A stretch of 64,000 bases of DNA from Dictyostelium discoideum (GCA_000004695.1 CM000150.2:3168001-3232000); one strand, 5' to 3'; positions 15,487 to 61,060 are shown, counted from the stretch's first letter. Notes: generated from the letters alone by a model not told the origin. Made by a program: numbers and translations.

Positions 15487-17815
15487 TTAATAAATTTGTT
15501 TTGGTTTTCTAACTAAAACCATAACTTTGTTAACACCTTTTGGTAAATTTGATTTAAATTCAGAGCCAACTTCAAAGCCATGATGTTGAAAGAATTCAAT
15601 AGAGTTGTTTTCGAAAACTACTGTTCTTGTTTCAACACCATTATGATCAGCCCAATTTAAAACATTTTCAATCATATGAGAACCAATACCATTACCTCTG
15701 AAAATCTCAGAGGTACAACAATATGCTAAGAACCAATGATTACATGAAGAGGATGAGGAGGAGGAGGAACCTTTAAAAGTTTGTAAATTTGATGTACTTG
15801 TATTTGGATTATTATTATTATTTTGAGCCATTGATAATATATTATCATCAAAACGCATAAGATCTAAAATTAAACCAACTCTTTTTAAACCAATTTTAGT
15901 GACTAAACTAAGGGAACCCTTTATACAATCGGATAATCTAATCTCTTTCTTTTTCTCTGGATTTAACCAAACGAAACAACTAACCATTGTACCATCGATA
16001 GCGAAATAACCCCAAATACTGCAATTATAACTTGAGAGTACTTTTAAAATATATTTGTAAAGATGTTGAAGATGAGGTATTGAATGAGGATCCGATGGTG
16101 GAAATATATTGAAAAATCTTGGATCCTTCACAAAAGAAGTAGCCAAAAGTAATGAAGCCTCTTGAAAATGTGATTTATCCAATTGTTTTCTAATGCCTTT
16201 GATGGTATTCTCTCTTTTAATTACCACTCTTTCCTTCAATAAAGAGGTATCCATTTTTTGTAGGGTTTCAATAATTGATTCAATCGATGGTCTAAATGTT
16301 GGATTCTTTGAGATCATTGATAACACCAATGGTGCTAATTTTTCATATTTCTCTGGGAATGTCGAAAGGAATTGCATTGAATCGAAACGATCATTCAACA
16401 TATCCTCACCTAAATAGATACGATTATGTGATAATAGTTTCAATGTTATCAACTCATAGAATATACAACCCAATGAGAAAATATCAGTGGTTTTATCATA
16501 GGTTGAATTTAATATTTCTGGCGAAGAATAACAATATGTACCAACAGTCTCACTATGAATACTACCAGTATGATGAGCTGATTGAATTGCTAACCCAAAA
16601 TCACCAATCTTTAATTTATTTGAACCACTAATGAATATATTTTCAGATTTTAAATCTCTATGAATCATTGATGCCCTATGTAAGGCTTGTACTCCATAAC
16701 TTAAATCTAATAACCATTCAATTAATTGAGTTTGTTCAATTAAATAAATTGAATCAACACCTTTTTTAATTTCATTTGAATGTATAACATGTTCTTCAAT
16801 ATTTAAATTTGACGATGACGATGATGAATGAGTAGTGTTGGTAGTGGTAGTAGTAGTAGCAGCAGTAGTGTGGTTACTATTATCTTTTTTAAATATCTTT
16901 TTTGTTAAATCAACAGTCATCTTTACAATACATTTTCTTTCTTTTAAACTACATTTCTTTTTTCTTTCAGATTTTGATGATTTTCTTTGAGGTGATGTTA
17001 CTGGATGTTGTTGTGGTGATAATGGTGATGATGGTGATGATGGTGATGAAGGTGATGATGGTGATGATGGTGATGATGGTGATGCAGTAGTTGCAGTAGT
17101 TGTACCAGCAAGTGTTGGTGTTGATATTGAATGTCTATTATTTGGTGTTGTTGTTGTTATTGGTGGTGTAGTTGCATTTGTTGGTGATGTTGTACCATTA
17201 ACTAATGATGAAGATGAATGTGAATGTTGAATAGTATTATTATTATTATTCTCTAATAATAAAGCTGCTTCAAAATTAGTTGATGAAGATGAACTTGTTC
17301 TACTAGTTGTAGAATCAATATCACTACCAGTATATTCACTACCAAGATTTAATGATGATAACTCTGATCCTAATGTAACTGTATGATGATGTTGTGGCTC
17401 TGATAATTCAATTAAAAAATCTAATAAATCTCCCATCTCACAAAATTCCATCATAATTGTAATTTCAATTTGGTCACCAATTTGTGTCATAATTGCATCC
17501 TCAAATCTAACTGTATTTGGATGCACAATTCTAGCCAATGACATTGCCTAAAAATAATAATAATAATAATAATAAAAATATTTTTAAAAATTTAATATAA
17601 ATATTAGTTAAATAAAATCAAAGTTAGAAAAAAAAAAAAAAAAAAAAAAATTAAAACATTACCTCTTTTAAACCTTGATTTGCATCTTTTAAATTATCAA
17701 ATAGTCTTTTTTTACCAACATATTTAACACCATCTTTTTCATATAAAATTGCTTTTCCTTCACCTCCTGATCTAAGGTCTTTAATTAATTTATATGATGA
17801 TAATGGGTCCTCCAT
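15487..17815 (-). CDS. NEK-like Ser/Thr protein kinase fused to a C-terminal GNAT N-acetyltransferase domain
   Basis: Minus strand. Exon 1 is 17663..17815 (MEDPLSSYKLIKDLRSGGEGKAILYEKDGVKYVGKKRLFDNLKDANQGLKE: glycine loop plus the beta3 lysine), with a GTAATG donor. The intron is 17549..17662. Exon 2 is 15487..17548 and begins AMSLARIVHPNTVRF..., carrying HRDLKSENIF, DFGLA and GTYCYSSPE. A low-complexity insert of about 250 aa (S/T/N-rich) lies inside the kinase domain. The C-terminus has GNAT motif A, FRGNGIGSHMIENVLNWADHNGVETRTVVFENNSIEFFQHHGFEV. Kinase and GNAT lie in one uninterrupted reading frame. Confidence 0.8.
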
Positions 17816-22840: not shown

Positions 22841-23418
22841 ATGGGTCCTAAAAAAGGAAAGAGGTCACATTCAAAAAACCATCATCACCATAATAATGGA
22901 AATAATAATAATAATAACAATAGTGGTGGTGGTAGTAGTAGTGATATTTTATATACATATAGTCAAGATACAAGAATATTATTATTTAAAGTGATATTAA
23001 CACAAAATGAAGAGATTATATGTATGGTTATACAAATTGCCTATGGATTACCAGGTTTACCAAAGATATCAGACATTTCTAGAGATTTAGGTATATTAAT
23101 ATTAAAATTACCAAATAGAACAATTAGAGAATTAGAATTATTTTTAGAATCTAAAAATATTTATTTTCGTGAAGATCAACATATAAATTATTTAAATGAA
23201 ATACCACAACCAACTACAACTACAACATCACCACCACCACCACCACCACCATCATCAATTTCAACAACAACAACAACAACAACAGCAACAGCAATAGAAA
23301 TTGAATCATCATCGGGACTAACATCAAATATAACAGATTCAACAGAAATTCAATTAGATTCAACTACGACTGATACAAAAACTACATCAACAACATCAAC
23401 AACAACAAATAATAGTAG

Positions 23419-23459
<41 letters not shown>

Positions 23460-23873
23460 GTAATAATATTTTAAATTTTCCATTTAATTGTCAAAATAAA
23501 TCAAAACAAAAAAGACCAATTTCAAAAGAAGAATCATTTAATAAAATGGTTCAATATAATTTTGATTTAGGTAAAATTTTCGATGAGTTTACAAGAGAAG
23601 TTTTATTAGATGATTTAAAGAATGATTTAAAGATTGATAATATACCCATTGACAATATATCAATATCACCAACACCAATCATTTCACCAGTTTTTCAAGA
23701 ATATGATTTGTTTTTAATGGATTCTTTCATTATACTTTGTGGTCAATTAGATAATGTAAAATTAACATTAGAAGAATTTAAAGATTATTATAAAAAGTAT
23801 ATATATATATTTTCATTTTATATGTTAACATTAATATTCATCATTATTTTAATTAACTTAAAATATTAATTAA

Positions 23874-23967
<94 letters not shown>

Positions 23968-24647
23968 TTTAGATATAAATTATTAAATCAATATATTGAA
24001 GATTTTAAAGATAATTTAATAAATGATTTTTTAGTAACAGTAGAGATATTAGCTAGTTGGTATATACCACAAAAGGATTATTCAATTGTTAAATTTATAA
24101 ATTGTTTTGGAGAAATGTTAGATTCAACGATTATAGAGAGTTTTTCATACATTTTCAATAAGACTATAAAGAAAGAGGATGATTGGTCAATTTCATTCAT
24201 TCAAGCGGCACTTGGATCCAATGAAGAATTTAAGAGACAAGTGATGTGTTTAAATGATGAATTAATTCAAGATAGATATGATCAATCATTGTATAGTATA
24301 ATGCATCCAATTAAATTTGACAATGTTAGAGAGTTTATTCTAATCTATAGTAGAGATGAAAATTATTTTGAACCACAAGAATTTTGGTATCTAATTTGTA
24401 AATACGATGCAATTGCAATCACTCAACATATAATCAACAATAATATAGCCGAAGAGGATCTATCCAAAAGATCAGGTAAAACCTATAATTCAAACTTGTC
24501 TGAAAATCCATTAGAAATCAATCCTCTAAGTTTATTAGAAATTTGTTCTGCAAATTTCTCTCATAAAATTGCATCAATCTTATTTCAATTTTATGATTTT
24601 AAAGATTCAATGCCAACAAGATTTAGTTTAAGAGGTGTTTTTAAACC

Positions 24648-24701
<54 letters not shown>

Positions 24702-27534
24702 AGATAAAGATGAAAAAGATAAAGAAAATAATAATAATAATGTAATATCACAACAATTTCAATATTTTAGAGTTTTAGATGTAAATTGTTATTTTAATGA
24801 TGTAATTAAAAAGAGAGCACCAATATTTATAGATTTAATGACACAATCAAATATTTATTTAAATACAGAGGTTGGTGAAGGATCGGATGAAAATGTTGAT
24901 ACTCATGAATCGATTTATTCATTTCAGAATAGTACCGAGTATTTAGCTATCAATTCAAATAGTATTCATAGATTGAAGAGGTCATCGATATCTTTACTTT
25001 CAAAGGTATTGGAATTTAATGATCGTGATACTTTGATATCGCTATTAAAGAATTTGACACAGGGTGGTTGTACATTATGCAAGGACCTAATTGACGAAAA
25101 ACAATTACTAATTACAATTAGTAGACCCCAATATCACCAAAGTATACAGATTCTACACCAAAATGGGTATACCATCATACCGAAATACCAACTACGTGAT
25201 CCTTACATCTTTTTTGCAGGCTCCAAACAAATCTTACAATATCTATTGGAAATTCACACAAATTCCCTCTCGGAGACTATAGATATCAGACACTGGATTC
25301 AGGCGATCATGAGTGCAGGTCAGTATAGCTCAGAGACTGAATTCTTTCAATACTATCCAAAGATTCAAGAATTATCATTACGCGATAAATATTCAAGAAC
25401 TTTAAATATTTTAGAATTACAATATATCCTTGGCCATATCGAAGGTATAGAATTCTTACTTGAGAAATATTTAGATTTCACTAAACCCTATCATTTAGAT
25501 AATCAAGAACTTTTAGAAATTTTCGATGTAACTTTTGTTCAAAAAAAAGATATTAGAACTGAAGAATCTTTAAAAGCTGAAAAAGATTTATTAGAACAAG
25601 AAGAAAATGAAAAAAAACGTTTAAAAGAAAAAAGAAAAAAAGAAGAAAAAGAAAAAAAAAAACAACAAAATTTAAAACAAAAATCTTTAATAACTAATAA
25701 TACTACTACTACTACTACTACTACACCAATACCAATTACAGTACCAATACCAACACAAACACAAACACCAACACAAACACCAACACAAACACCAATACCA
25801 ACACCAATACCAACAACACCAATACCAACAACACCAATACCAATACCAATTCAATTGACACCAACAACACCAAAAACACCAAAAACACCAAAAACACCAA
25901 AAACACCAACAACACCAAAAACACCAATAACACCCAAAACACCAAAAAATTCTACTTTAGATAAACAAACAATTTCAACACCAAAAACACCACCACCTTT
26001 ATCAGTAAATACAACACCAATAACACCATCACCACCACCACAAACTATAGCTACAACAATAACAACAACAACAACAACACCAAAAACAACAAAAACAACA
26101 ACAACATCAAAAATACCGACATTAATAATAGAATTAAATAAATATGATATTTCAATTGGTAAATTTAAATTTAGTAGAAAAGATGAATTTATAATTGGTA
26201 GAGGATCAAATGGTACATTAGTTTTTAAAGGTATTTGGAATGATAGAATACCAGTTGCAATTAAACAAATGCATAAAGCTTTTAATCCATTAATTAGTAA
26301 AGAGATTGAAGTATTAATTACATTAACAAATAAGAATTGTAATAACATCGTAAGATATATTGATCAAGAAGAAGATGATATGTTTGTTTATTTAGGTTTA
26401 ACATTATGTAATGGTTCTTTACAAAATTTAGTTGAAAAAGATTTAGAAATTAATTTAATATCAACATCAAATAATGAAAATAATAATAATAATAAATTAA
26501 AGAATTTTATTGGTTCAGAATTAAGATTATTAGAATTAATTAAAGATATTGTTTATGGTATTCAATTTTTACATCAACAAGGTATAGTTCATAATGATTT
26601 AAATCCAAGGAATATTTTAATTAAAGATGATAGATTCATTATATCGGATTTAGGGTTAAGTAAAATGGAAGTAACTTCGTCATACTCATTTACGATGCAT
26701 GCTCCAACTGGTCAAGAAGGTTTTCATCCGGCTGAAGTACTATTAGAGAAACGTAAAACTAAATCTGTTGATATCTTTTCAATGGGTTGTATTCTATTTT
26801 ATTTAATGACTGGTGGTCAACATCCATTTGGTGATAAATTCTTTAGAATGGCTAATATTTTAACAGATAAACCAATTCTAGAACCATTGAAACATAATTT
26901 AGTAGCATGTGATTTAATTAGTCAAATGATATCAAAAAATGAATCTGATAGACCAACTACTGAAAATATACTTTTACATCCATTCTTTTGGAATCATGAA
27001 AAGAAAGTTAAATTCATTGATGCTTCTTTAAATTTATTTAAAGATTCAAATGGTTTATTCACTTCAAAATTAAATAAATTAATTAATCAATTTCAAGATA
27101 CTGATGGTGTTAATACAACAAGCACACCATTTCTTTCGAAACCATGGAATCAATTAATTGATCCAACTTTAATTGAACATATTACAAATAAACAAAATCA
27201 ATTAAGTGGTGGTAGTAGTATTGGAAATAATAATAATAATAGTTTGACATTAAGTGGTAAAAAATTTTATTTTTATGATTATTCTCAAGTAAAAGATTTA
27301 GTACGTTGTATTAGAAATACAATACAACATCATAAAGAGATTCAAAGATTAATTTCACAATCACCATCATCATCAAATAAACAAGAAGTGTTGGATTGTT
27401 TAGAGAGTCAAGAATTAGTTTTATCTTATTTTGAAGAAAAAGTTCCCGACCTTTTACTCTTTCTTTATCAAAAGTTTAAAAAACATTTGGATTCAAAATC
27501 CTTAATTTATTTTAATGATTTAATTATTAAATAA
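22841..27534 (+). CDS. IRE1/RNase L-like protein: large N-terminal region + (pseudo)kinase domain + KEN endoribonuclease domain (paralog A)
   Basis: Exon 1 is 22841..23796 with a GTATAT donor. The intron is 23797..23972 and contains an (ATT)~29 tract. Exon 2 is 23973..27534. The kinase domain (about 26130-27000) has [18 protein letters not shown], a catalytic loop HNDLNPRN in place of HRDLKPxN, and DLG in place of DFG. The KEN domain has [19 protein letters not shown], and a motif [16 protein letters not shown] matching the IRE1/RNase L catalytic block RNxxxHH. A Thr/Pro-rich linker (TPK repeats) precedes the kinase. Confidence 0.8.
23878..23966. repeat. (ATT)~29 intronic microsatellite in kinase-KEN paralog A
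   Basis: Lies inside intron 23797..23972. Confidence 0.85.
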
Positions 27535-27805
27535 AATAAAATTATATTAAACCAACAAAATTTAAAAAAAAAAAAAAAAAAAAAACATAAAATTGTTAAT
27601 CTTTCCAGAAAAAATAAAAAAAATATAATTGGATATAACAAAGTATAATTGACCATGATGGTTTCTGATAAAAAAAAGTGGGGACCAACTACTGATGTTT
27701 TTTTTTTTTCAGTTTTTTTTTTTTTATAATTTTTTACGAAAAAAAAAAAATAAATTAAAAAAATTAAAAATTAAAAAAAAATAATTAATTTAATCCGAAT
27801 CATAT

Positions 27806-27857
<52 letters not shown>

Positions 27858-27930
27858 TTTCATTTATGCAAAAATAAAAATTTAAATTAATGGTCCAATA
27901 AATAAATAAATAAATAATAAAAAAATAACA

Positions 27931-27964
<34 letters not shown>

Positions 27965-27967
27965 AAA

Positions 27968-28292
27968 ATGAAAAGTAATTACAGTACATATCTTTATAAA
28001 ATGTCAGAATTAGAAAGGATAGTGAATGGTGGTGACGTTTCAAGTATTTTCATTGAACAAGATGATGTATTAGGTGAAATTAAAAACTTTAACTATGATT
28101 TATATACAAAATATGATTCATTAGTTTTAAAAGATCCTCAAACTCAAAATAATTCACCAAAACCACCAAGCCTAGAAATATTTATACTAGTTAATTTAAT
28201 AGCGTTATGTGGTAGAATTAATGATAAATTTCCAAATTTAGATAAATTTTTAACTCATTATAAATATGCGTATGTATTTTAAATTATTTTAA

Positions 28293-28382
<90 letters not shown>

Positions 28383-29101
28383 AATATAATAGTACTAATA
28401 TATTTAACTTATTAAGTGAAAATATTATAAATTCTATTGAAAAATTTAAAGAAACATTATCAAAAGATTTACCAAGTTTTCAATTATCAGTTATAGCGAA
28501 TAGTTCAATTGTAAAAAAAGATAATTCAATTATAAAGTTTTTAAGTTGTTTTGGATCATTTATGAAATTAGAATCAATTGAATATTTTGGATCAGTATTT
28601 AATAGTTTAATAGGAGAAGAGGACCAATTCTCATTAGATTTATTACAAGTTTTAATTGATAGTTCAAATGAATATAAAAAGTTTTTACAAATTTTAGAAT
28701 TTAATCAATTACAAAAATATTATGATGATGGTCATCTTTGTTTATTTCATTCAATTAAATTTGATAATTTAAATGAATTTAAATTATTATTTAATGATTC
28801 TACTTGGTGTCAACAGCAACAGCAGCAACAACAAATAAATCCTCAAATATTTTGGTTTATACTTTGTAAATATAATTCATCAAAAATTGCCCATTATCTT
28901 TTAAATGATTATCAAATTAATAAAAAATCATTAAAACAAAAGAATCCATTAGAAATTAGTCCTGTAACTCTATTAGAAATCGCTTTCTTATGTTTTAGTG
29001 ATAAAATTGCAATTGTATTATTTTCACAATTTAATTATCATGAATTATTACCAAAGAAATCAAAAATGAAACATTTAATTAAATCAACTTCAACTTTAAT
29101 A

Positions 29102-29195
<94 letters not shown>

Positions 29196-32100
29196 GTAAA
29201 AATATCGGATTAACACAATATACAGTTTTAGAAGGTTATTTTTTAATTAATATTAGAACAAGGAGTAGGATAGCACCATTTATCGAAGTTTTAACAATGA
29301 ATGGTATCCATTTAACAAATGATATAATACATACTAGAATTAAATCAATGAGTTCTGATTCAATATTTAGAATATTTACAGAACAATACCAACAACAACA
29401 ACAGAATCCACTAAATAATAATCAAAAACAAATTCAATTTAATGAAAATTTCACAAGACAACAAAAAATAGATTTCGATAATTGTCCAAATGAAATTGAT
29501 ACTTTTATTTTAGATAAAACTCAATGTAATTTAATAACATTATCTCAAGAGTTTTCAATCAAAGTTAGAGCATTCACATTTTATTTGTCATTTGGTGAAA
29601 TATTCACTTGTTCTTGTGAAGACTATAAAAGAGAATTCTCTTGTAAACATATGTTTTTCATTCTTTTAAATTATTATCATGTTCCAAGAAATTCCTATCT
29701 AATCTATCAAAGACAATTTACAGAGATTGAAAGATATTCAATAATTATGAATATAGATTTAAGTAAAATTAATTCAAGAATATATGGTACTCCAAATTTT
29801 AATACTTTTTTTAAAATTAAATCATCACCATCATCAACAACATCACCATTTCAAAGTATTAATAATAACAATAATAATAATTTAAACAATAATAATAATA
29901 ATAATTTAAATAATAATAATAATAATGAAAATGAAAATAAATTTAAAGAAGATGGTGATGATGAAATTTTACAAAATTTAAATAGATTAAATTATATATT
30001 ATTAAGGGATTTTGAATTTGGACCAAATGATATTACAACTAAACTTCGAGAAACTCATATAAATCTATTTGATAGATTATTACTTATAGAGGATAATTTA
30101 GAGGCATTGGATAAGATATTAAAGAATTTCACTCAAAAAGGTTGTACATTATCAAGGGATTTGGTTGGTGATCGTAATCTATTGGTTTTAGTGGCAATTC
30201 TAGATTCAACTTCAAAAGAGAAACTATCATTATTGAACAAGTATTGGCCATTACCTGAAAAAACGAAAAAGTTTGCTATTCCATTAATTTTCTTTGCAAT
30301 ATCTGAAGAATGTTTAAAAATGTTTATTCAAATCTCTCCAAATTTAGTTAAATCAACTTTAAACTTACATGATTGGATTTCAATTCTAACTGAATTCGCC
30401 TTAATTAATGAAACTTTCTTAGACCATTACCCACTTTTATCCGCTTGGTATAGTGATGCTCGTTCAGTTGAAACCTCATTATTTAGATTATTCACCTGTA
30501 TGGATAAAATAGATTGTATAAATTACTTAATTCAAACCTATCTTTTACCAATTCCAACTTTCAAAAATACTCTAAATAATTTTGAAACTTGTTACTTTTT
30601 TGAAACTTATTTCCTTGAAAACTCCTCAATCAAAGCTGAACAATACTTATTAGAACAGGAACTATTAGAAAAAAAAAAACAAAAAGAAAAAAAAAAACAA
30701 AAACAAAAACAATCAAAATCAAAAATTATTAATAATCCTTTATCATCATCATCATCATCATCATCATCACCATCAACTTCTAATACTACAATCACCTCAA
30801 CAACACCAACAACAACAACAACCACCACCACAACAACAACACCAACAACTACAACAACAACAACAACAACATCATCACCAAAACAAAAACCTATAACTCC
30901 AATTAAAAAAGAAATAGAAAAAGAATTTGAAAAAATTGAACTTACTACACCACCACCACCATTGGCAACAACCAAACAACAACAAATTAATGAAAATTAT
31001 GATATTTCAATTGGTAAATTTAAATTTAATAGAAAAGAAGAGAATGTATTAGGTAGAGGATCAAATGGTACATTAGTTTTTAAAGGTATTTGGAATAATA
31101 GAATTCCAGTTGCAATTAAACAAATGCAAAAGATGTTTAATCCATTAATTAGTAAAGAGATTGAAGTATTAATTACATTAACAAATAAGAATTGTTATAA
31201 CATTGTAAGATATATTGATCAAGAAGAAGATGAATCATGCGTTTATTTAGGTTTAACACTATGTGATGGTTCTTTGCAAAATTTAGTTGAAAAAGGTGAT
31301 AATAACCTGACATTAACTCAATTTTTAGGCTATGATATTAATAGCAGTAGTAAAAATAATTCAAGATTATTAGAACTAATTAAAGATATTGTTTATGGTA
31401 TTCAATTTTTACATCAACAAGGTATAGTTCATAATGATTTAAATCCAAGGAATATTTTAATTAAAGATGATAGATTCATTATATCGGATTTAGGGCTAAG
31501 TAAAATGGAAGTAACTTCATCATACTCATTTACGATGCATGCTCCAACTGGTCAAGAAGGTTTTCATCCGGCTGAAGTACTATTAGAGAAACGTAAAACT
31601 AAATCTGTTGATATCTTTTCAATGGGTTGTATTCTATTTTATTTAATGACTGGTGGTCAACATCCATTTGGTGATAAATTCTATCGTATTGTTAATATTT
31701 TAACAGATAAACCAATCCTCGAACCATTGAAACATAATTTAGTAGCATGTGATTTAATTAGTCAAATGATATCAAAAAATGAATCTGATAGACCAACAAT
31801 TGAAAAAATACTTTTACATCCATTCTTTTGGAATCATGAAAAGAAAGTTAAATTCATTGATGCTTCTTTAAATTTATTTAAAGATTCAAATGGTTTATTC
31901 ACTTCAAAATTAAATAAATTAATTAATTATCAAGAAATTAATTTAAAAAATAATATTGATAGTAGTAGTAGTAATAATAATAATAATATAAATAGTAATG
32001 TAATTAATAATAATAATAATAATAATAATGGTATGGCGACTAATATACCATTTTTATCAAAACCATGGAACCAATTAATTGATCAAACTTTAATTGAACA

Positions 32101-32425
32101 TATAATAAATAAACAAAATCAATTAAATGGTGTCGGTAATAATAAAAAGGTAATAATTTACAGTTTTGATCAAGTAAAAGATTTAGTACGTTGTATTAGA
32201 AATACAATACAACATCATAAAGAGATTCAAAGATTAGTTAGACAATCACCATCATCAAATGGTGATAATAAACAAGAAGTTTTGGATTGTTTAGAGAGTC
32301 AAGAATTAGTTTTATCTTATTTTGAAGAAAAAGTTCCCGACCTTTTACTCTTTCTTTATCAAAAGTTTAAAAAACATTTGGATTCAAAATCCTTAATTTA
32401 TTTTAATGATTTAATAATTAAATAA
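27968..32425 (+). CDS. IRE1/RNase L-like (pseudo)kinase-KEN protein with an extra SWIM-type zinc finger (paralog B)
   Basis: Exon 1 is 27968..28269 with a GTATGT donor. The intron is 28270..28392 and contains an (ATT)~28 tract. Exon 2 is 28393..32425. The intron position and phase (phase 2) match paralog A. A SWIM CxCxnCxH motif ([18 protein letters not shown]) lies at about 29603-29660. The kinase and KEN domains are almost nucleotide-identical to paralog A, including HNDLNPRN and the RNTIQHH motif. Confidence 0.8.
28296..28380. repeat. (ATT)~28 intronic microsatellite in kinase-KEN paralog B (same intron position as in paralog A)
   Basis: Lies inside intron 28270..28392. Confidence 0.85.
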
Positions 32426-58603: not shown

Positions 58604-60519
58604 TTAATCAAAACCTAATTCTTTATGACGAATATATCTTAAGCATTGTACAAACATAATGACAGTTTCAGGAACACGACCTTCAACTAACCATTCACCA
58701 TTACCAATCTTTGAAACCAAAGAACCTCTTTGAGAAGACCATTTGAAGGATAATTTTGTATTTTGATTTAAGTACTCATTATTTGTTTGATCCCAAATAT
58801 ACTTTAAGAAAGGTTCATTTGAATTTGGATTATACCAAGCCAACCAAACACCATTCCATTTACCATGACCCAAGTTTCTAGTGGTATCGGATGCTGGCAT
58901 TAAGAATTGACCATTCCAATTGTATTTGATTTCTTTTGGTTTAATTGAAGTATCCAAGAAATCGGTATTAAATAAAGTTCCATCAGGACGATAAGTCCAT
59001 TCTTCGCCATGACTACTTCTAATAATACCACCAGCCATTGATTTTCTTTTATTCTCTCTATTATTTACAACACTATTACTACTACTACTAGTTGCACCAC
59101 CACCACTACCACTACCACCACCACCACCACTAGCAATACCAATAGTTTCTAATAAATTCTCTTTAATATATAAATTTATACAAGATTGATTTGTATCAAA
59201 ATTCTTTCTTGGTAAACCATCAATTGCCAACATCCACAAAGCACTTTCCTTTTCATTTGAGCCTCTAAAAATAAACTTTTGACCACCAACAATCTTTACC
59301 ATCCAACAATGTTTATATTCATACTTTGTAACTGGTGTAATTGATATGATTGAGTTTAAAGAGATTTCTTTTTTTAATTTTTTCGATTTACTCGAATGAA
59401 TTGATAATTTCTCTGGTGATAAAGTTAACCATTGTTCTTTCCAAACCACCAATGGTCCTTTTTTACCTTTTTTAATTAACATACCAGATTTATAGAGATA
59501 ATCATCTTCCTCTGGTTTATAGATTTGTGTGATATTCTCAGCAGATGGCACCAAGAATAAAGAGTTTACAAGTTCAGATGGTATATCAACCTCTGGTACG
59601 ATACCAGTTTCAATGAATTGTCTAGTTGCACGAATAAATGATGCCAAAATCGATGCTCTCTTCTCGGTGATATTTGATTTCTTAATTTCAATTTCAATAC
59701 CCAATAGTTTCTTTGCAATAATTGAAATCGATTGAGCCACAATATCCATCTCTGTCAATGAATTGAAAACTTGATTATTTTTATTTACACCATGTACATT
59801 TTGTTGTTGATTTAAATTTGAATATGCATTTGAAAATAATGGTGATGATGTATTTGATAATGATGATAATGTTGGAGAATTTAATGTTGATATTGATGTA
59901 TTTGAATTTGAATTTGAATTTGAATTTACAATTTGTTGTTGTTGTTGTTGTAGTTGTTGATTTATTTGTACAGATGATGAAGTTAATGAAGATAATGAAG
60001 AAAATGATGGAGATGGTGAAAGTATACTATCAATATTATTAATATTCCTATTGATTGGTGTTGGTGATAATGGATTATTTGTAATGATTTTACTATCAGT
60101 TTCAGAACTTGAAATCGAATCCAATGGTGATAGAATCTTTGTAATGATTTTAGTATTGGTAATTAAATAACCAAATTCAGAATTGATAATATCACCACTC
60201 GATTGAGGATTAAGAATATCTGGTAATGATAATACTGATCTTTGATATTCGCCTAATCTACCCAAAATAAATTCAGCATTCTCTATAACTTGTTTACGAA
60301 TTTGTGACATTCTTTCATTTTGAATTGATTTTCTTGATTTAACTTTATTAGTTGTTGGTGATTGATTACCACCAGGTGATAATACCAATTTATTTAATAC
60401 TGGTGATAATGAAGTTGACGATGACGATGATGACTTTGTTGTTAAACTTGGACTTGATGGTGGTGAATTTAATAATACATTTGCATGTGATGGAGATGAT
60501 GGCTCATTCTCTTTGTCAC

Positions 60520-60552
<33 letters not shown>

Positions 60553-61060
60553 AGCAACCTTTTGTTAAATATTCAGAACCAGATAATGGTGCATAGATTT
60601 TCATAACTTCATCAATTTTCAATTGCATTGATGCACGCATTGATTTTCTATGAAGTGTATTATGTTTAGTTTTATCTTTACTATTGGGTGTGTTTGTAAT
60701 ACTATTACTACTGAAACTCAATTGGTTGTTGTTATTACTATTGTTATTACTAAAGTATTTATTATTATTATTATTGTTTAATGGTGATGACAATGGTGAG
60801 GAGATATAACTTTGATTCGATGGTACTGAGGAGTGAAGTGATAAAGCATTGGTTGTTGATTTACCACCCAAATCAAATTGAATACCTTTGGATTTTTCAG
60901 ATTTTCCACCAATTATTCCACTTCTTAATGTAGCGGATCTAAGTTTACTTAATGGACTACTACTCTCTTTGGCTCCATCTAAATTCTTTCTCTTTTTTAA
61001 TCCATCTCTTGATAATTTTGACATATCATTTTTATTATTTAGTGGTGAAGCTGTTGACAT
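58604..61060 (-). CDS. PH-domain protein (818 aa) with S/N-rich N-terminal half and a conserved Trp-rich C-terminal domain
   Basis: Single ORF. The PH domain is YKSGMLIKKGKKGPLVVWKEQWLTLSPEKLSIHSSKSKKLKKEISLNSIISITPVT...HCWMVKIVGGQKFIFRGSNEKESALWMLAIDG. The C-terminal ~170 aa (WTYRPDGTLFNTDFL...NWNGQFLMPAS...GHGKWNGVWLAWYNP...WLVEGRVPETVIMFVQCLRYI) is non-low-complexity and has no assigned fold. Confidence 0.8.

What the first reader, a model, noticed from the sequence alone, without database searches (positions are those of the whole stretch)
22841..32425. Tandem pair of IRE1/RNase L-like kinase-KEN ribonuclease genes with mosaic divergence: 5' halves diverged to protein-level similarity only, 3' ~1.4 kb nearly nucleotide-identical
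Both genes end in a protein-kinase-like domain followed by a KEN (kinase-extension nuclease) domain. The KEN domain retains the IRE1/RNase L catalytic block ([16 protein letters not shown], i.e. R-N-x3-H-H). The catalytic loop reads HNDLNPRN, which lacks the conserved HRD Arg and the DLK Lys, and DFG is replaced by DLG. A pseudokinase that regulates an RNase, as in RNase L, is therefore plausible. Neither gene has a signal peptide or TM segment like the ER-lumenal sensor of canonical IRE1, so these are cytosolic regulated RNases of unknown trigger. Over 26130-27090 vs 30990-31930, and again 27280-27534 vs 32165-32425, the DNA is ~95-100% identical, synonymous sites included. The N-terminal ~800 codons are barely alignable at DNA level; examples are [13 protein letters not shown]... 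vs [13 protein letters not shown]..., and [12 protein letters not shown] vs [12 protein letters not shown]. This mosaic pattern is what gene conversion, or a recent segmental re-duplication of the catalytic module between tandem paralogs, would produce. The first intron is in the same phase-2 position in both genes and carries an (ATT)~28-29 tract in both.
Basis: partly seen in the sequence, partly recalled or inferred. Interest (0 to 1): 0.8.

Follow-up and report, generated by a model that had tools for sequence, protein, structure and literature searches.

The report
Dictyostelium irlD/irlC kinase-RNase gene pair
Two neighbouring, already catalogued Dictyostelium discoideum genes (irlD and irlC) encode cytosolic IRE1/RNase L-type kinase-ribonucleases whose sensor halves are old and very different, while repeated gene conversion keeps their kinase-RNase halves almost identical; this is a clean but ordinary case of concerted evolution in a family of unknown function.

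Summary
Window 22841-27534 and 27968-32425 (+ strand) carry two tandem two-exon genes. Each ends in a protein-kinase domain plus a KEN ribonuclease domain, both above Pfam thresholds, with IRE1 as the best solved relative. The N-terminal ~1000 codons are 27-33% identical in protein and saturated at synonymous sites. From '[10 protein letters not shown]' to the stop codon, dS falls to 0.03-0.4.

The window is D. discoideum AX4 chromosome 1. The genes are IrlD and IrlC of the published Dictyostelium kinome (2006), which already noted seven IRE-family members with RNase L-type domains, only IreA being membrane-bound.

New here:
- Orthologous tandem pairs from two other genomes show 59 sites where A=B within each genome but genomes differ, 48 of them at third codon positions. 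These sites cluster in two tracts, so gene conversion is recurrent and continued after speciation.
- Both halves are under purifying selection.
- An AlphaFold model of the N-terminal domain (moderate confidence) matches only ankyrin-repeat proteins, including the RNase L sensor domain.
- IrlC carries a private SWIM-like zinc finger.

The 'pseudokinase' reading is not supported by motifs. The genes are known, the conversion is ordinary, and the function is still untested.

The parts
22841..23796 (+). irlD (gene A) exon 1. It encodes an N-terminal extension: a basic/His/Asn-rich start, a conserved block at aa 35-121, and T/S/N low-complexity sequence.
   Evidence: ORF and splice reconstruction. 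The start [17 protein letters not shown] equals IrlD DDB0231221 in Goldberg 2006 Table S2. The aa 38-121 block is 93% identical to the D. firmibasis orthologue.
23797..23972 (+). irlD intron 1. It is GT..AG, follows codon base 2, and contains a (TAT/ATT) array of about 36 copies at 23864-23971.
   Evidence: The same splice junction (..DYYKK|YKLLNQ..) appears in the annotated orthologue P0001.
23974..25590 (+). irlD N-terminal all-helical repeat domain (aa 320-858), ankyrin-like in the predicted structure. It is the presumed sensor or interaction domain.
25591..26139 (+). irlD K/E-rich and T/P-rich low-complexity linker. The 5' edge of the homogenised module lies at its end.
   Evidence: dN/dS is 0.7-0.9 between orthologues.
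26140..27534 (+). irlD kinase-like domain (Pfam match about 26191-26988) plus KEN RNase domain (to the stop codon). This is the module shared with irlC.
26530..27069 (+). Conversion tract 1 in irlD, running from the catalytic loop through the kinase C-lobe to the start of KEN. It pairs with 31370-31909 in irlC.
   Evidence: Paralogues differ by 0-8% per 90-bp window here, against 4-16% between AX4 and D. firmibasis orthologues. Most of the 59 concerted sites lie here. Identical runs of 163, 120 and 119 bp occur.
27386..27534 (+). Conversion tract 2 in irlD, covering the C-terminal helices of KEN to the stop codon. It pairs with 32277-32425 in irlC.
   Evidence: Similarity ends at the stop codon and the 3' UTRs do not align.
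27968..28269 (+). irlC (gene B) exon 1.
   Evidence: The start [17 protein letters not shown] equals IrlC DDB0231222.
28270..28392 (+). irlC intron 1. It follows codon base 2 and contains (ATT)x29.7 at 28293-28381. An alternative acceptor that would put the exon start at 28417 is not excluded.
28394..30700 (+). irlC N-terminal helical-repeat domain. It is homologous to that of irlD at 27-33% identity, with large private inserts.
   Evidence: Orthologue dN/dS is 0.16-0.22.
29609..29650 (+). irlC-specific SWIM-like zinc-finger motif [14 protein letters not shown] (CxCx10CxH), inside an insert absent from irlD.
   Evidence: The motif is conserved in the ACTFIW and D. firmibasis orthologues and absent from all the other family members that were scanned. 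SWIM is the only Pfam family hitting the insert, but it is sub-threshold (E=0.041, 13.9 bits against 19.6).
30994..32425 (+). irlC kinase-like domain (Pfam match about 31037-31828) plus KEN RNase domain. It contains conversion tracts 31370-31909 and 32277-32425.

Best explanation
These are irlD (22841-27534) and irlC (27968-32425), two of the seven IRE-family genes of D. discoideum AX4, lying in tandem on chromosome 1.

**Architecture (shown).** Each gene encodes a soluble protein with four parts:
- a dictyostelid-specific, all-helical N-terminal domain that is ankyrin-like in the predicted structure;
- a low-complexity linker;
- a kinase domain with an unusual but conserved catalytic loop ([11 protein letters not shown]);
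- a KEN ribonuclease domain with the full Tyr/Arg/Asn/His catalytic set.

**Evolution (shown).**
- The duplication is old. The sensor halves are about 30% identical and saturated at synonymous sites.
- Both copies are kept by purifying selection.
- The kinase-KEN effector half has been homogenised by non-reciprocal recombination between the neighbours.
- Two tracts are still being converted independently in each lineage: the catalytic loop through the C-lobe to the start of KEN, and the C-terminal helices of KEN.
- The converted module is bounded 5' by the low-complexity linker and 3' by the stop codon.
- Short patches with paralogue-specific residues persist in all three genomes. They lie in the N-lobe, the kinase insert and the KEN loops.

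**Mechanism (inferred from IRE1 and RNase L, not shown).** The N-terminal repeat domain would bind an unknown ligand or partner. That would drive nucleotide-dependent back-to-back dimerisation or oligomerisation of the kinase-KEN module, which would assemble the RNase site and cleave cytosolic RNA. The two proteins would then couple different inputs to an almost identical output.
For: **Identity**
- A neighbouring ORF is an exact match to AX4 XP_646147.1 on a 4.92-Mb contig.
- The protein starts and motifs equal IrlD and IrlC in Goldberg 2006 Table S2.
- The family is described as seven members with RNase L-type domains, only IreA being membrane-bound.

**Domains**
- Pfam Pkinase and KEN are above threshold. 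IRE1 is the best PDB match at 1e-45.
- The KEN Y/R/N/H residues align to human IRE1 Y892/R905/N906/H910.
- The motifs are conserved across dictyostelid relatives.

**Mosaic**
-.

**Conversion**
- In a six-sequence alignment of AX4, GCA_054859355.1 and D. firmibasis, 59 sites have A=B within every genome but differ between genomes. Another 69 sites are paralogue-specific and fixed in all three genomes.
- 48 of the 59 concerted sites are third codon positions. The two site classes fall into 22 runs where 64.6 are expected (0 of 20000 shuffles reached this).
- Within-genome paralogue dS is 0.15-0.16, against 0.35-0.45 between AX4 and D. firmibasis orthologues for the same codons.
- Ten sites separate AX4 (A=B) from ACTFIW (A=B). 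Six of them lie within 37 bp.

**Selection**
- Orthologue dN/dS is 0.04-0.22 in the N-domains and 0.05-0.11 in kinase-KEN.

**N-domain fold**
-.
Against: - No RNA or protein data were available. The splice sites, expression, kinase activity and RNase activity are all untested here.
- The ankyrin-like assignment rests on one AF2 model of moderate confidence, built from only nine sequences. Sequence methods find no ankyrin signal: Pfam finds none, hhalign against a real ANK region gives probability 0.3%, and the best Foldseek E-value is 0.13.
- Outside the two tracts the module groups by orthology. Part of its similarity may therefore come from one older homogenisation or a domain replacement plus constraint, rather than from ongoing conversion.
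- GC3 is not enriched in the tracts, so there is no sign of biased conversion.
Confidence: 0.82

Rival explanations
1. The similarity comes from a single recent event: a segmental re-duplication or replacement of the 3' 1.4 kb of one gene by the other. It has simply decayed since, with no continuing conversion.
For: The module as a whole has sharp outer boundaries at the linker and at the stop codon. Outside the two core tracts, paralogues differ by 7-37% per window and group by orthology between AX4 and D. firmibasis. That pattern is compatible with one older event before those species split.
Against: One event cannot give 59 sites, mostly synonymous, where both paralogues share a genome-specific base in each of three genomes. 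It also cannot make paralogue dS (0.15) lower than orthologue dS (0.35-0.45). The ten AX4-versus-ACTFIW concerted differences show exchange after that very recent split.
Confidence: 0.1
2. There has been no recombination. The C-terminal half is simply under far stronger purifying selection, including selection on codon usage, than the N-terminal half.
For: Kinase-KEN is the conserved catalytic part in all IRE1 relatives. Orthologue dN/dS there is low, at 0.05-0.11.
Against: The N-terminal domains are just as constrained between orthologues (dN/dS 0.04-0.22) yet are saturated between paralogues. Constraint cannot create lineage-specific synonymous changes shared by both paralogues.
Confidence: 0.03
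3. One copy, or the near-identical 3' part, is an assembly artefact caused by a collapsed or duplicated repeat.
For: Near-identical 100-160 bp runs in an AT-rich, repeat-rich genome are the kind of sequence that can mislead assemblers.
Against: The same tandem pair, with the same 69 paralogue-specific differences and private indels, is present in three independent assemblies. Both genes were catalogued separately in 2006.
Confidence: 0.01
4. IrlC and IrlD are RNase L-type pseudokinases: they bind nucleotide but do not transfer phosphate.
For: The catalytic loop lacks the HRD Arg and the catalytic-loop Lys (HNDLNPRN). In that respect it resembles my recollection of the RNase L loop, which was not checked here. 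The predicted N-domain is ankyrin-like, as in RNase L.
Against: All residues normally needed for ATP binding and phosphotransfer are present and invariant in the family. An Arg two residues before the catalytic-loop Asn is the tyrosine-kinase arrangement (HRDLAARN, established knowledge). Goldberg 2006 flagged non-IreA IRE members as possible Tyr-accepting kinases and rated IrlC and IrlD 'kd' with predicted activity 'a'. DLG occurs in active kinases; the same table lists NdrA with DLG as active.
Confidence: 0.3

Closest known systems
Dictyostelium IRE-like kinases IrlA-IrlF (Goldberg et al. 2006, PLoS Genet 2:e38; PMC1420674)
   Same: These are the genes themselves: gene A is IrlD (DDB0231221) and gene B is IrlC (DDB0231222). 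The paper already reports the expansion to seven members, the RNase L-type domain in all, the lack of membrane anchoring in all but IreA, the [11 protein letters not shown] motifs, and IrlC/IrlD as sister kinase domains.
   Different: In the text and supplements searched, the paper says nothing about the tandem arrangement, the mosaic divergence, the concerted evolution, or the nature of the N-terminal domain.
IRE1 (yeast Ire1p, human ERN1, Dictyostelium IreA)
   Same: It has a kinase domain directly followed by a KEN RNase. It is the best sequence match among solved structures (1e-45). The KEN catalytic Tyr/Arg/Asn/His are conserved.
   Different: IrlC and IrlD have no signal peptide, lumenal domain or transmembrane segment. 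Their catalytic loop is HNDLNPRN rather than HRDLKPxN. Their N-terminal domain is a long helical repeat. Dictyostelium has a separate true orthologue, IreA, for the ER stress response.
RNase L (jawed vertebrates)
   Different: No ankyrin signal is detectable by sequence. The repeat domain is about twice as long and is separated from the kinase by a low-complexity linker of about 180 residues. The RNase L lineage is reported as restricted to jawed vertebrates, with ankyrin repeats in other kinase-RNase proteins 'likely gained independently' (PMC10400998). The 2-5A-binding residues were not examined.
Domain-restricted concerted evolution of tandem paralogues (general phenomenon; my own knowledge, not tested here)
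   Same: Conversion tracts with sharp edges lie inside otherwise diverged duplicates, with patches that escape homogenisation.
   Different: Nothing unusual in mechanism. The particular feature here is that the effector half is homogenised while the presumed sensor half is kept apart.
Acytostelium subglobosum SAMD00019534_036070 (P0010)
   Same: It is a dictyostelid protein with a HNDLNPRN kinase, a KEN domain and Pfam-detectable ankyrin repeats (Ank_4 25.0 bits, Ank_3 23.9 bits, both above threshold).
   Different: It is only 670 aa, its ankyrin repeats are recognisable by sequence, and its Gly-loop is degenerate. It has no detectable profile similarity to the IrlC/IrlD N-domain.

Membership tests
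Kinase-KEN (IRE1/RNase L) superfamily | Protein-kinase fold immediately followed by a KEN (Ribonuc_2-5A, PF06479) domain | tested here: met
   Pkinase scores 122 and 124 bits. PF06479 scores 43.0 and 42.0 bits against a gathering threshold of 23.3, in both genes. IRE1 kinase-RNase structures are the best PDB hits.
Kinase-KEN (IRE1/RNase L) superfamily | KEN catalytic residues (human IRE1 Y892, R905, N906, H910) | tested here: met
   The HMMER alignment places [10 protein letters not shown] on Y892/R905/N906/H910. The same pattern is found in both genes and in 10 of the 12 other proteins scanned.
Kinase-KEN (IRE1/RNase L) superfamily | Metal-independent endoribonuclease activity activated by dimerisation | not testable with these tools
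   This needs recombinant protein.
Canonical IRE1 (ER stress sensor) | Signal peptide, lumenal sensor domain and a single transmembrane segment | tested here: not met
   The N-termini are hydrophilic and there is no convincing hydrophobic 19-mer. Goldberg 2006 reports that only IreA is membrane-bound.
Canonical IRE1 (ER stress sensor) | HRDLKPxN catalytic loop and DFG | tested here: not met
   Both genes have HNDLNPRN and DLG. IreA has HRDIKPHN.
RNase L | N-terminal ankyrin-repeat sensor domain | tested here: inconclusive
RNase L | Binding of 2',5'-oligoadenylate | not testable with these tools
RNase L | Membership of the jawed-vertebrate RNase L clade | not tested
   No KEN-domain phylogeny was built here. 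The literature places the clade in jawed vertebrates only (PMC10400998). The kinase domain scores best against IRE1, and RNase L is not among the 60 listed hits. With the KEN domain alone, RNase L scores E=3.9.
Dictyostelium Irl family (IrlC, IrlD) | Identity with the catalogued AX4 genes | tested here: met
   The window is AX4 chromosome 1 by an exact protein match of a neighbouring gene. The first 17 residues and the [15 protein letters not shown] motifs equal DDB0231221 and DDB0231222. An exact look-up of my full gene models failed, so the models may differ in detail from the database models.
Concerted evolution by gene conversion | Paralogues within a genome are closer than orthologues between genomes at synonymous sites | tested here: met
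   dS is 0.15-0.16 between paralogues against 0.35-0.45 between orthologues. Per-window distances reverse in 26530-27069 and 27386-27534.
Concerted evolution by gene conversion | Lineage-specific substitutions shared by both paralogues and clustered in tracts | tested here: met
   There are 59 such sites, 48 at third positions. The runs test gives 22 runs against 64.6 expected, P<5e-5.

The most novel reading that the evidence does not exclude
The Irl proteins could be an amoebozoan counterpart of RNase L. On this reading they are a small family of cytosolic, ligand-gated suicide or stress RNases. Their cryptic ankyrin-like sensor domains have diversified to read different signals, for example nucleotide second messengers made by the OAS-related nucleotidyltransferases reported in amoebozoans. 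One sensor, IrlC, has gained a SWIM finger. Gene conversion would keep the effector modules of neighbours interchangeable, and perhaps able to form heterodimers.
Probability: 0.12. Interest if true: 0.75.

Novelty: already known. Interest (0 to 1): 0.3.

Why it matters
The genes and the family expansion have been in the literature and in dictyBase since 2006, so there is no discovery of a new kind of system.

What this analysis adds:
- A well-documented example of domain-restricted concerted evolution. The effector half is homogenised, the sensor half is kept apart, and both are under purifying selection.
- A structural lead that the uncharacterised N-terminal domain is a divergent ankyrin-type solenoid. 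That gives the Irl proteins the same part order as RNase L.

If the second point holds experimentally, the Irl family would be a tractable model, in a genetically easy amoeba, for how soluble kinase-KEN RNases are switched on outside the ER and outside vertebrates. No functional study of irlA-irlE turned up in the library searched.

Tried and rejected
- **The search for homologous proteins with a 4-sequence N-domain alignment.** It returned nothing. The kinase-KEN query returned only five distant proteins and none of the D. discoideum paralogues. The full-length query returned only four hits, and it did not return the annotated gene B orthologues of the two related loci.
- **Scan of genome contigs for an exact 50-mer.** It found nothing. 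That collection holds only bacteria and archaea, so the scan was uninformative.
- **Exact look-up of my gene models for A and B.** It failed. The source genome was identified through a neighbouring gene instead.
- **Single-sequence AlphaFold of the N-domain.** It was useless (pLDDT 32).
- **afdb50 fold library.** It was not available.
- **Foldseek against PDB.** It gave only non-significant ankyrin hits.
- **hhalign of the N-domain profile against the ankyrin region of Acytostelium P0010.** No signal.
- **Pfam on the N-terminal regions at E<=10.** Only low-complexity noise.
- **GC3 in the conversion tracts against their flanks.** No consistent enrichment, so there is no evidence for GC-biased conversion.
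- **Literature search for irlA-irlE with Dictyostelium.** No relevant paper.
- **Antisense ORFs at 25851-26348 and 30607-30975.** These are translations of the low-complexity linkers on the other strand and were dismissed.

Full report
**What is in the sequence**

The window is very AT-rich (GC 14-33% per 2 kb). The region 22.8-32.5 kb on the + strand holds two long ORF pairs.

Reading the junctions and testing splice combinations gives two two-exon genes:
- Gene A: exon 1 at 22841-23796, intron at 23797-23972, exon 2 at 23973-27534; 1505 aa.
- Gene B: exon 1 at 27968-28269, intron at 28270-28392, exon 2 at 28393-32425; 1444 aa. A second in-frame acceptor, which would put the exon start at 28417, is not excluded.

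Both introns follow the second base of a codon and lie within one codon of each other in the protein alignment. Both are filled by an ATT array, of 35.7 and 29.7 copies.

Pfam finds a protein-kinase domain (E about 1e-35) followed by a KEN/Ribonuc_2-5A domain (43.0 and 42.0 bits against a threshold of 23.3) in both genes. It finds nothing significant upstream. The best solved relatives are the yeast and human IRE1 kinase-RNase structures (1e-45 to 1e-42).

**Identity of the genes**

A neighbouring ORF (58607-61060, minus strand) is an exact match to D. discoideum AX4 XP_646147.1 on a 4.92-Mb contig. The window is therefore AX4 chromosome 1.

Table S2 of the Dictyostelium kinome paper (Goldberg et al. 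2006, PMC1420674) lists two entries:
- IrlD (DDB0231221), starting [17 protein letters not shown].
- IrlC (DDB0231222), starting [17 protein letters not shown].

Both carry VAIK / HNDLNPRN / DLG, and both are rated a complete kinase domain with predicted activity 'a'. These are gene A and gene B.

The same paper states that the IRE family is expanded to seven members in Dictyostelium, that all have RNase L-type domains, and that none but IreA appears membrane-bound. Its kinase tree has IrlC and IrlD as sisters. The genes and their domain make-up are therefore already known.

I found no paper in the searchable library that studies irlA-irlE functionally. The ER-stress literature treats IreA as the single IRE1 orthologue.

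**The mosaic**

- blastn of A against B gives three collinear matches in the 3' 1.4 kb: 91.9% over 955 columns, 90.7% over 86 and 95.3% over 256. Upstream there are only simple-repeat hits.
- At protein level the N-terminal regions align over two blocks at 27-33% identity, and the C-terminal module at about 88%.
- In a codon alignment, sliding-window dS is 0.5 to saturated up to about 26.0 kb (A) / 30.9 kb (B). It then drops to 0.03-0.4, with a stretch of 100% amino-acid identity and dS of 0.03-0.07 at 26527-26830.
- The 5' edge is the first codons of '[10 protein letters not shown]', directly after the T/P-rich low-complexity linker. The 3' edge is the stop codon, and the 3' UTRs do not align.

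**Conversion or constraint?**

I fetched the orthologous tandem pairs from a second assembly labelled D. discoideum (GCA_054859355.1, locus L002) and from D. firmibasis (L001). I then aligned the six C-terminal modules.

- Among 1319 ungapped columns, 69 sites are paralogue-specific and fixed in all three genomes. Another 59 sites have A=B inside every genome but differ between genomes.
- 48 of those 59 are third codon positions.
- The two classes are strongly clustered: 22 runs against 64.6 expected, with 0 of 20000 shuffles as low.
- In 90-bp windows, paralogues are closer than AX4-D. firmibasis orthologues throughout 26530-27069 and 27386-27534. Orthologues are closer elsewhere.
- Over the whole module, within-genome paralogue dS is 0.15-0.16 in all three genomes, against 0.35-0.45 between AX4 and D. 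firmibasis orthologues.
- Ten sites separate AX4 (A=B) from the second assembly (A=B), six of them within 26670-26706. Exchange therefore continued after that recent split.

Parallel synonymous substitution cannot produce this pattern, and neither can purifying selection. Three independent assemblies with the same private differences exclude an assembly artefact.

The best reading has two parts. An older homogenisation or replacement affected the whole kinase-KEN module. Short-tract conversion then recurred in two sub-regions. Patches in the N-lobe, the kinase insert and the KEN loops either escape conversion or are restored by selection. GC3 shows no sign of biased conversion.

**Both genes are functional**

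Between orthologues, dN/dS is 0.04-0.22 for the N-terminal domains and 0.05-0.11 for kinase-KEN. Only the low-complexity linkers approach neutrality.

**The catalytic domains**

The KEN Tyr, Arg, Asn and His align with human IRE1 Y892, R905, N906 and H910. They are present in both genes and in nearly all relatives scanned.

The kinase domain keeps the Gly-loop (GRGSNG), the VAIK Lys, the aC Glu, the catalytic Asp, the Asn and the DxG Asp. HNDLNPRN is invariant from Dictyostelium to Acytostelium and Cavenderia. It is therefore a selected feature and not decay.

The Arg two residues before the Asn recalls the tyrosine-kinase loop HRDLAARN (established knowledge). Goldberg et al. flagged the non-IreA members as candidates for accepting tyrosine.

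**The N-terminal domain**

- HMMER of residues 320-858 of IrlD against 1.84 billion representative proteins finds four proteins. All are built as N-domain + HNDLNPRN kinase + KEN. The domain is therefore lineage-specific and tied to this effector.
- A single-sequence AlphaFold run failed.
- With a nine-sequence family alignment, the model reaches pLDDT 67 and pTM 0.62. Its structured parts score 70-92, and it has three disordered inserts. It is all-helical, in pairs of short helices.
- Foldseek's best hits are also ankyrins but are not significant.
- Sequence profiles show no ankyrin signal.

I treat 'divergent ankyrin-type solenoid' as a lead of moderate strength. If it is right, the Irl proteins have the RNase L order of parts. 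A relative in Acytostelium (P0010) has Pfam-detectable ankyrin repeats in front of the same kinase-KEN.

The literature places true RNase L in jawed vertebrates. It regards ankyrin repeats in other kinase-RNase proteins as independent gains, and it reports OAS-related proteins in amoebozoans.

**Difference between the two sensors**

IrlC has a large private insert containing [14 protein letters not shown] (CxCx10CxH) at 29609-29650. The motif is conserved in both orthologues and absent from IrlD and the other relatives scanned. SWIM is the only Pfam family that hits it, below threshold.

IrlD has a longer exon-1-encoded extension with a conserved block at aa 35-121.

**Mechanism**

- Shown: architecture, catalytic residues, selection and conversion.
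- Inferred from IRE1 and RNase L: the repeat domain receives a signal; nucleotide-bound kinase domains pair back to back; the paired KEN domains form the RNase site; cytosolic RNA is cut.

The conversion tracts cover the catalytic loop, the C-lobe and both ends of KEN. Whether keeping these identical matters, for example for heterodimers, or is a by-product of proximity is not known.

**Verdict**

The genes are catalogued, and gene conversion between tandem paralogues is ordinary. The ankyrin-like sensor and the SWIM insert are modest new leads. Interest is 0.3.

Noticed in passing
window 29609-29650 (inside the irlC-specific insert, about 29300-30050): A CxCx10CxH motif ([14 protein letters not shown]) preceded by predicted strands resembles a SWIM zinc finger. 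It is conserved in the ACTFIW and D. firmibasis orthologues and absent from irlD and the other family members scanned. The Pfam SWIM hit is sub-threshold (E=0.041).
   Followed up: partly
L002 (GCA_054859355.1, labelled D. discoideum) against window 13000-37500: This assembly is only 84-97% identical to AX4 across the locus, with dS of 0.06-0.13 in irlC and irlD. As far as I recall, that is far above normal within-species diversity for D. discoideum. It may be a cryptic sibling species or a mislabelled isolate.
   Followed up: no
P0010 (Acytostelium subglobosum SAMD00019534_036070): This 670-aa protein has Pfam-detectable ankyrin repeats, a HNDLNPRN kinase and a KEN domain, which is an RNase L-like architecture in a dictyostelid. 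Its Gly-loop is degenerate. P0009, from the same species, has lost the KEN catalytic motif.
   Followed up: partly
window 22841-23796 (irlD exon 1): irlD has an N-terminal extension of about 290 aa that irlC lacks. It includes a block (aa 38-121) that is 93% identical to the D. firmibasis orthologue, has no Pfam match, and is flanked by poly-T/S/N tracts.
   Followed up: no
L002 9974-14524: In the second assembly the irlD intron with its ATT array is an open reading frame in phase with both exons. Intron retention there would add an Ile/Leu/Tyr-rich insert rather than stop translation.
   Followed up: no
window 15487-17544 (- strand): A neighbouring gene encodes a protein kinase fused to an acetyltransferase (GNAT) domain, according to the precomputed Pfam hits on its orthologues in L001 and L002. 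It also gives a weak kinase match to irlD (29% identity).
   Followed up: no
window 25851-26348 and 30607-30975 (- strand): Antisense ORFs of 165 and 122 aa are Val/Gly-rich translations of the low-complexity linkers of irlD and irlC. They are almost certainly not genes.
   Followed up: partly
window 27535-27967 (intergenic region between irlD and irlC): The 433-bp spacer is almost pure A/T, with homopolymer runs of up to 48 A. The irlC promoter must lie inside it, so the two genes are very tightly packed.
   Followed up: no
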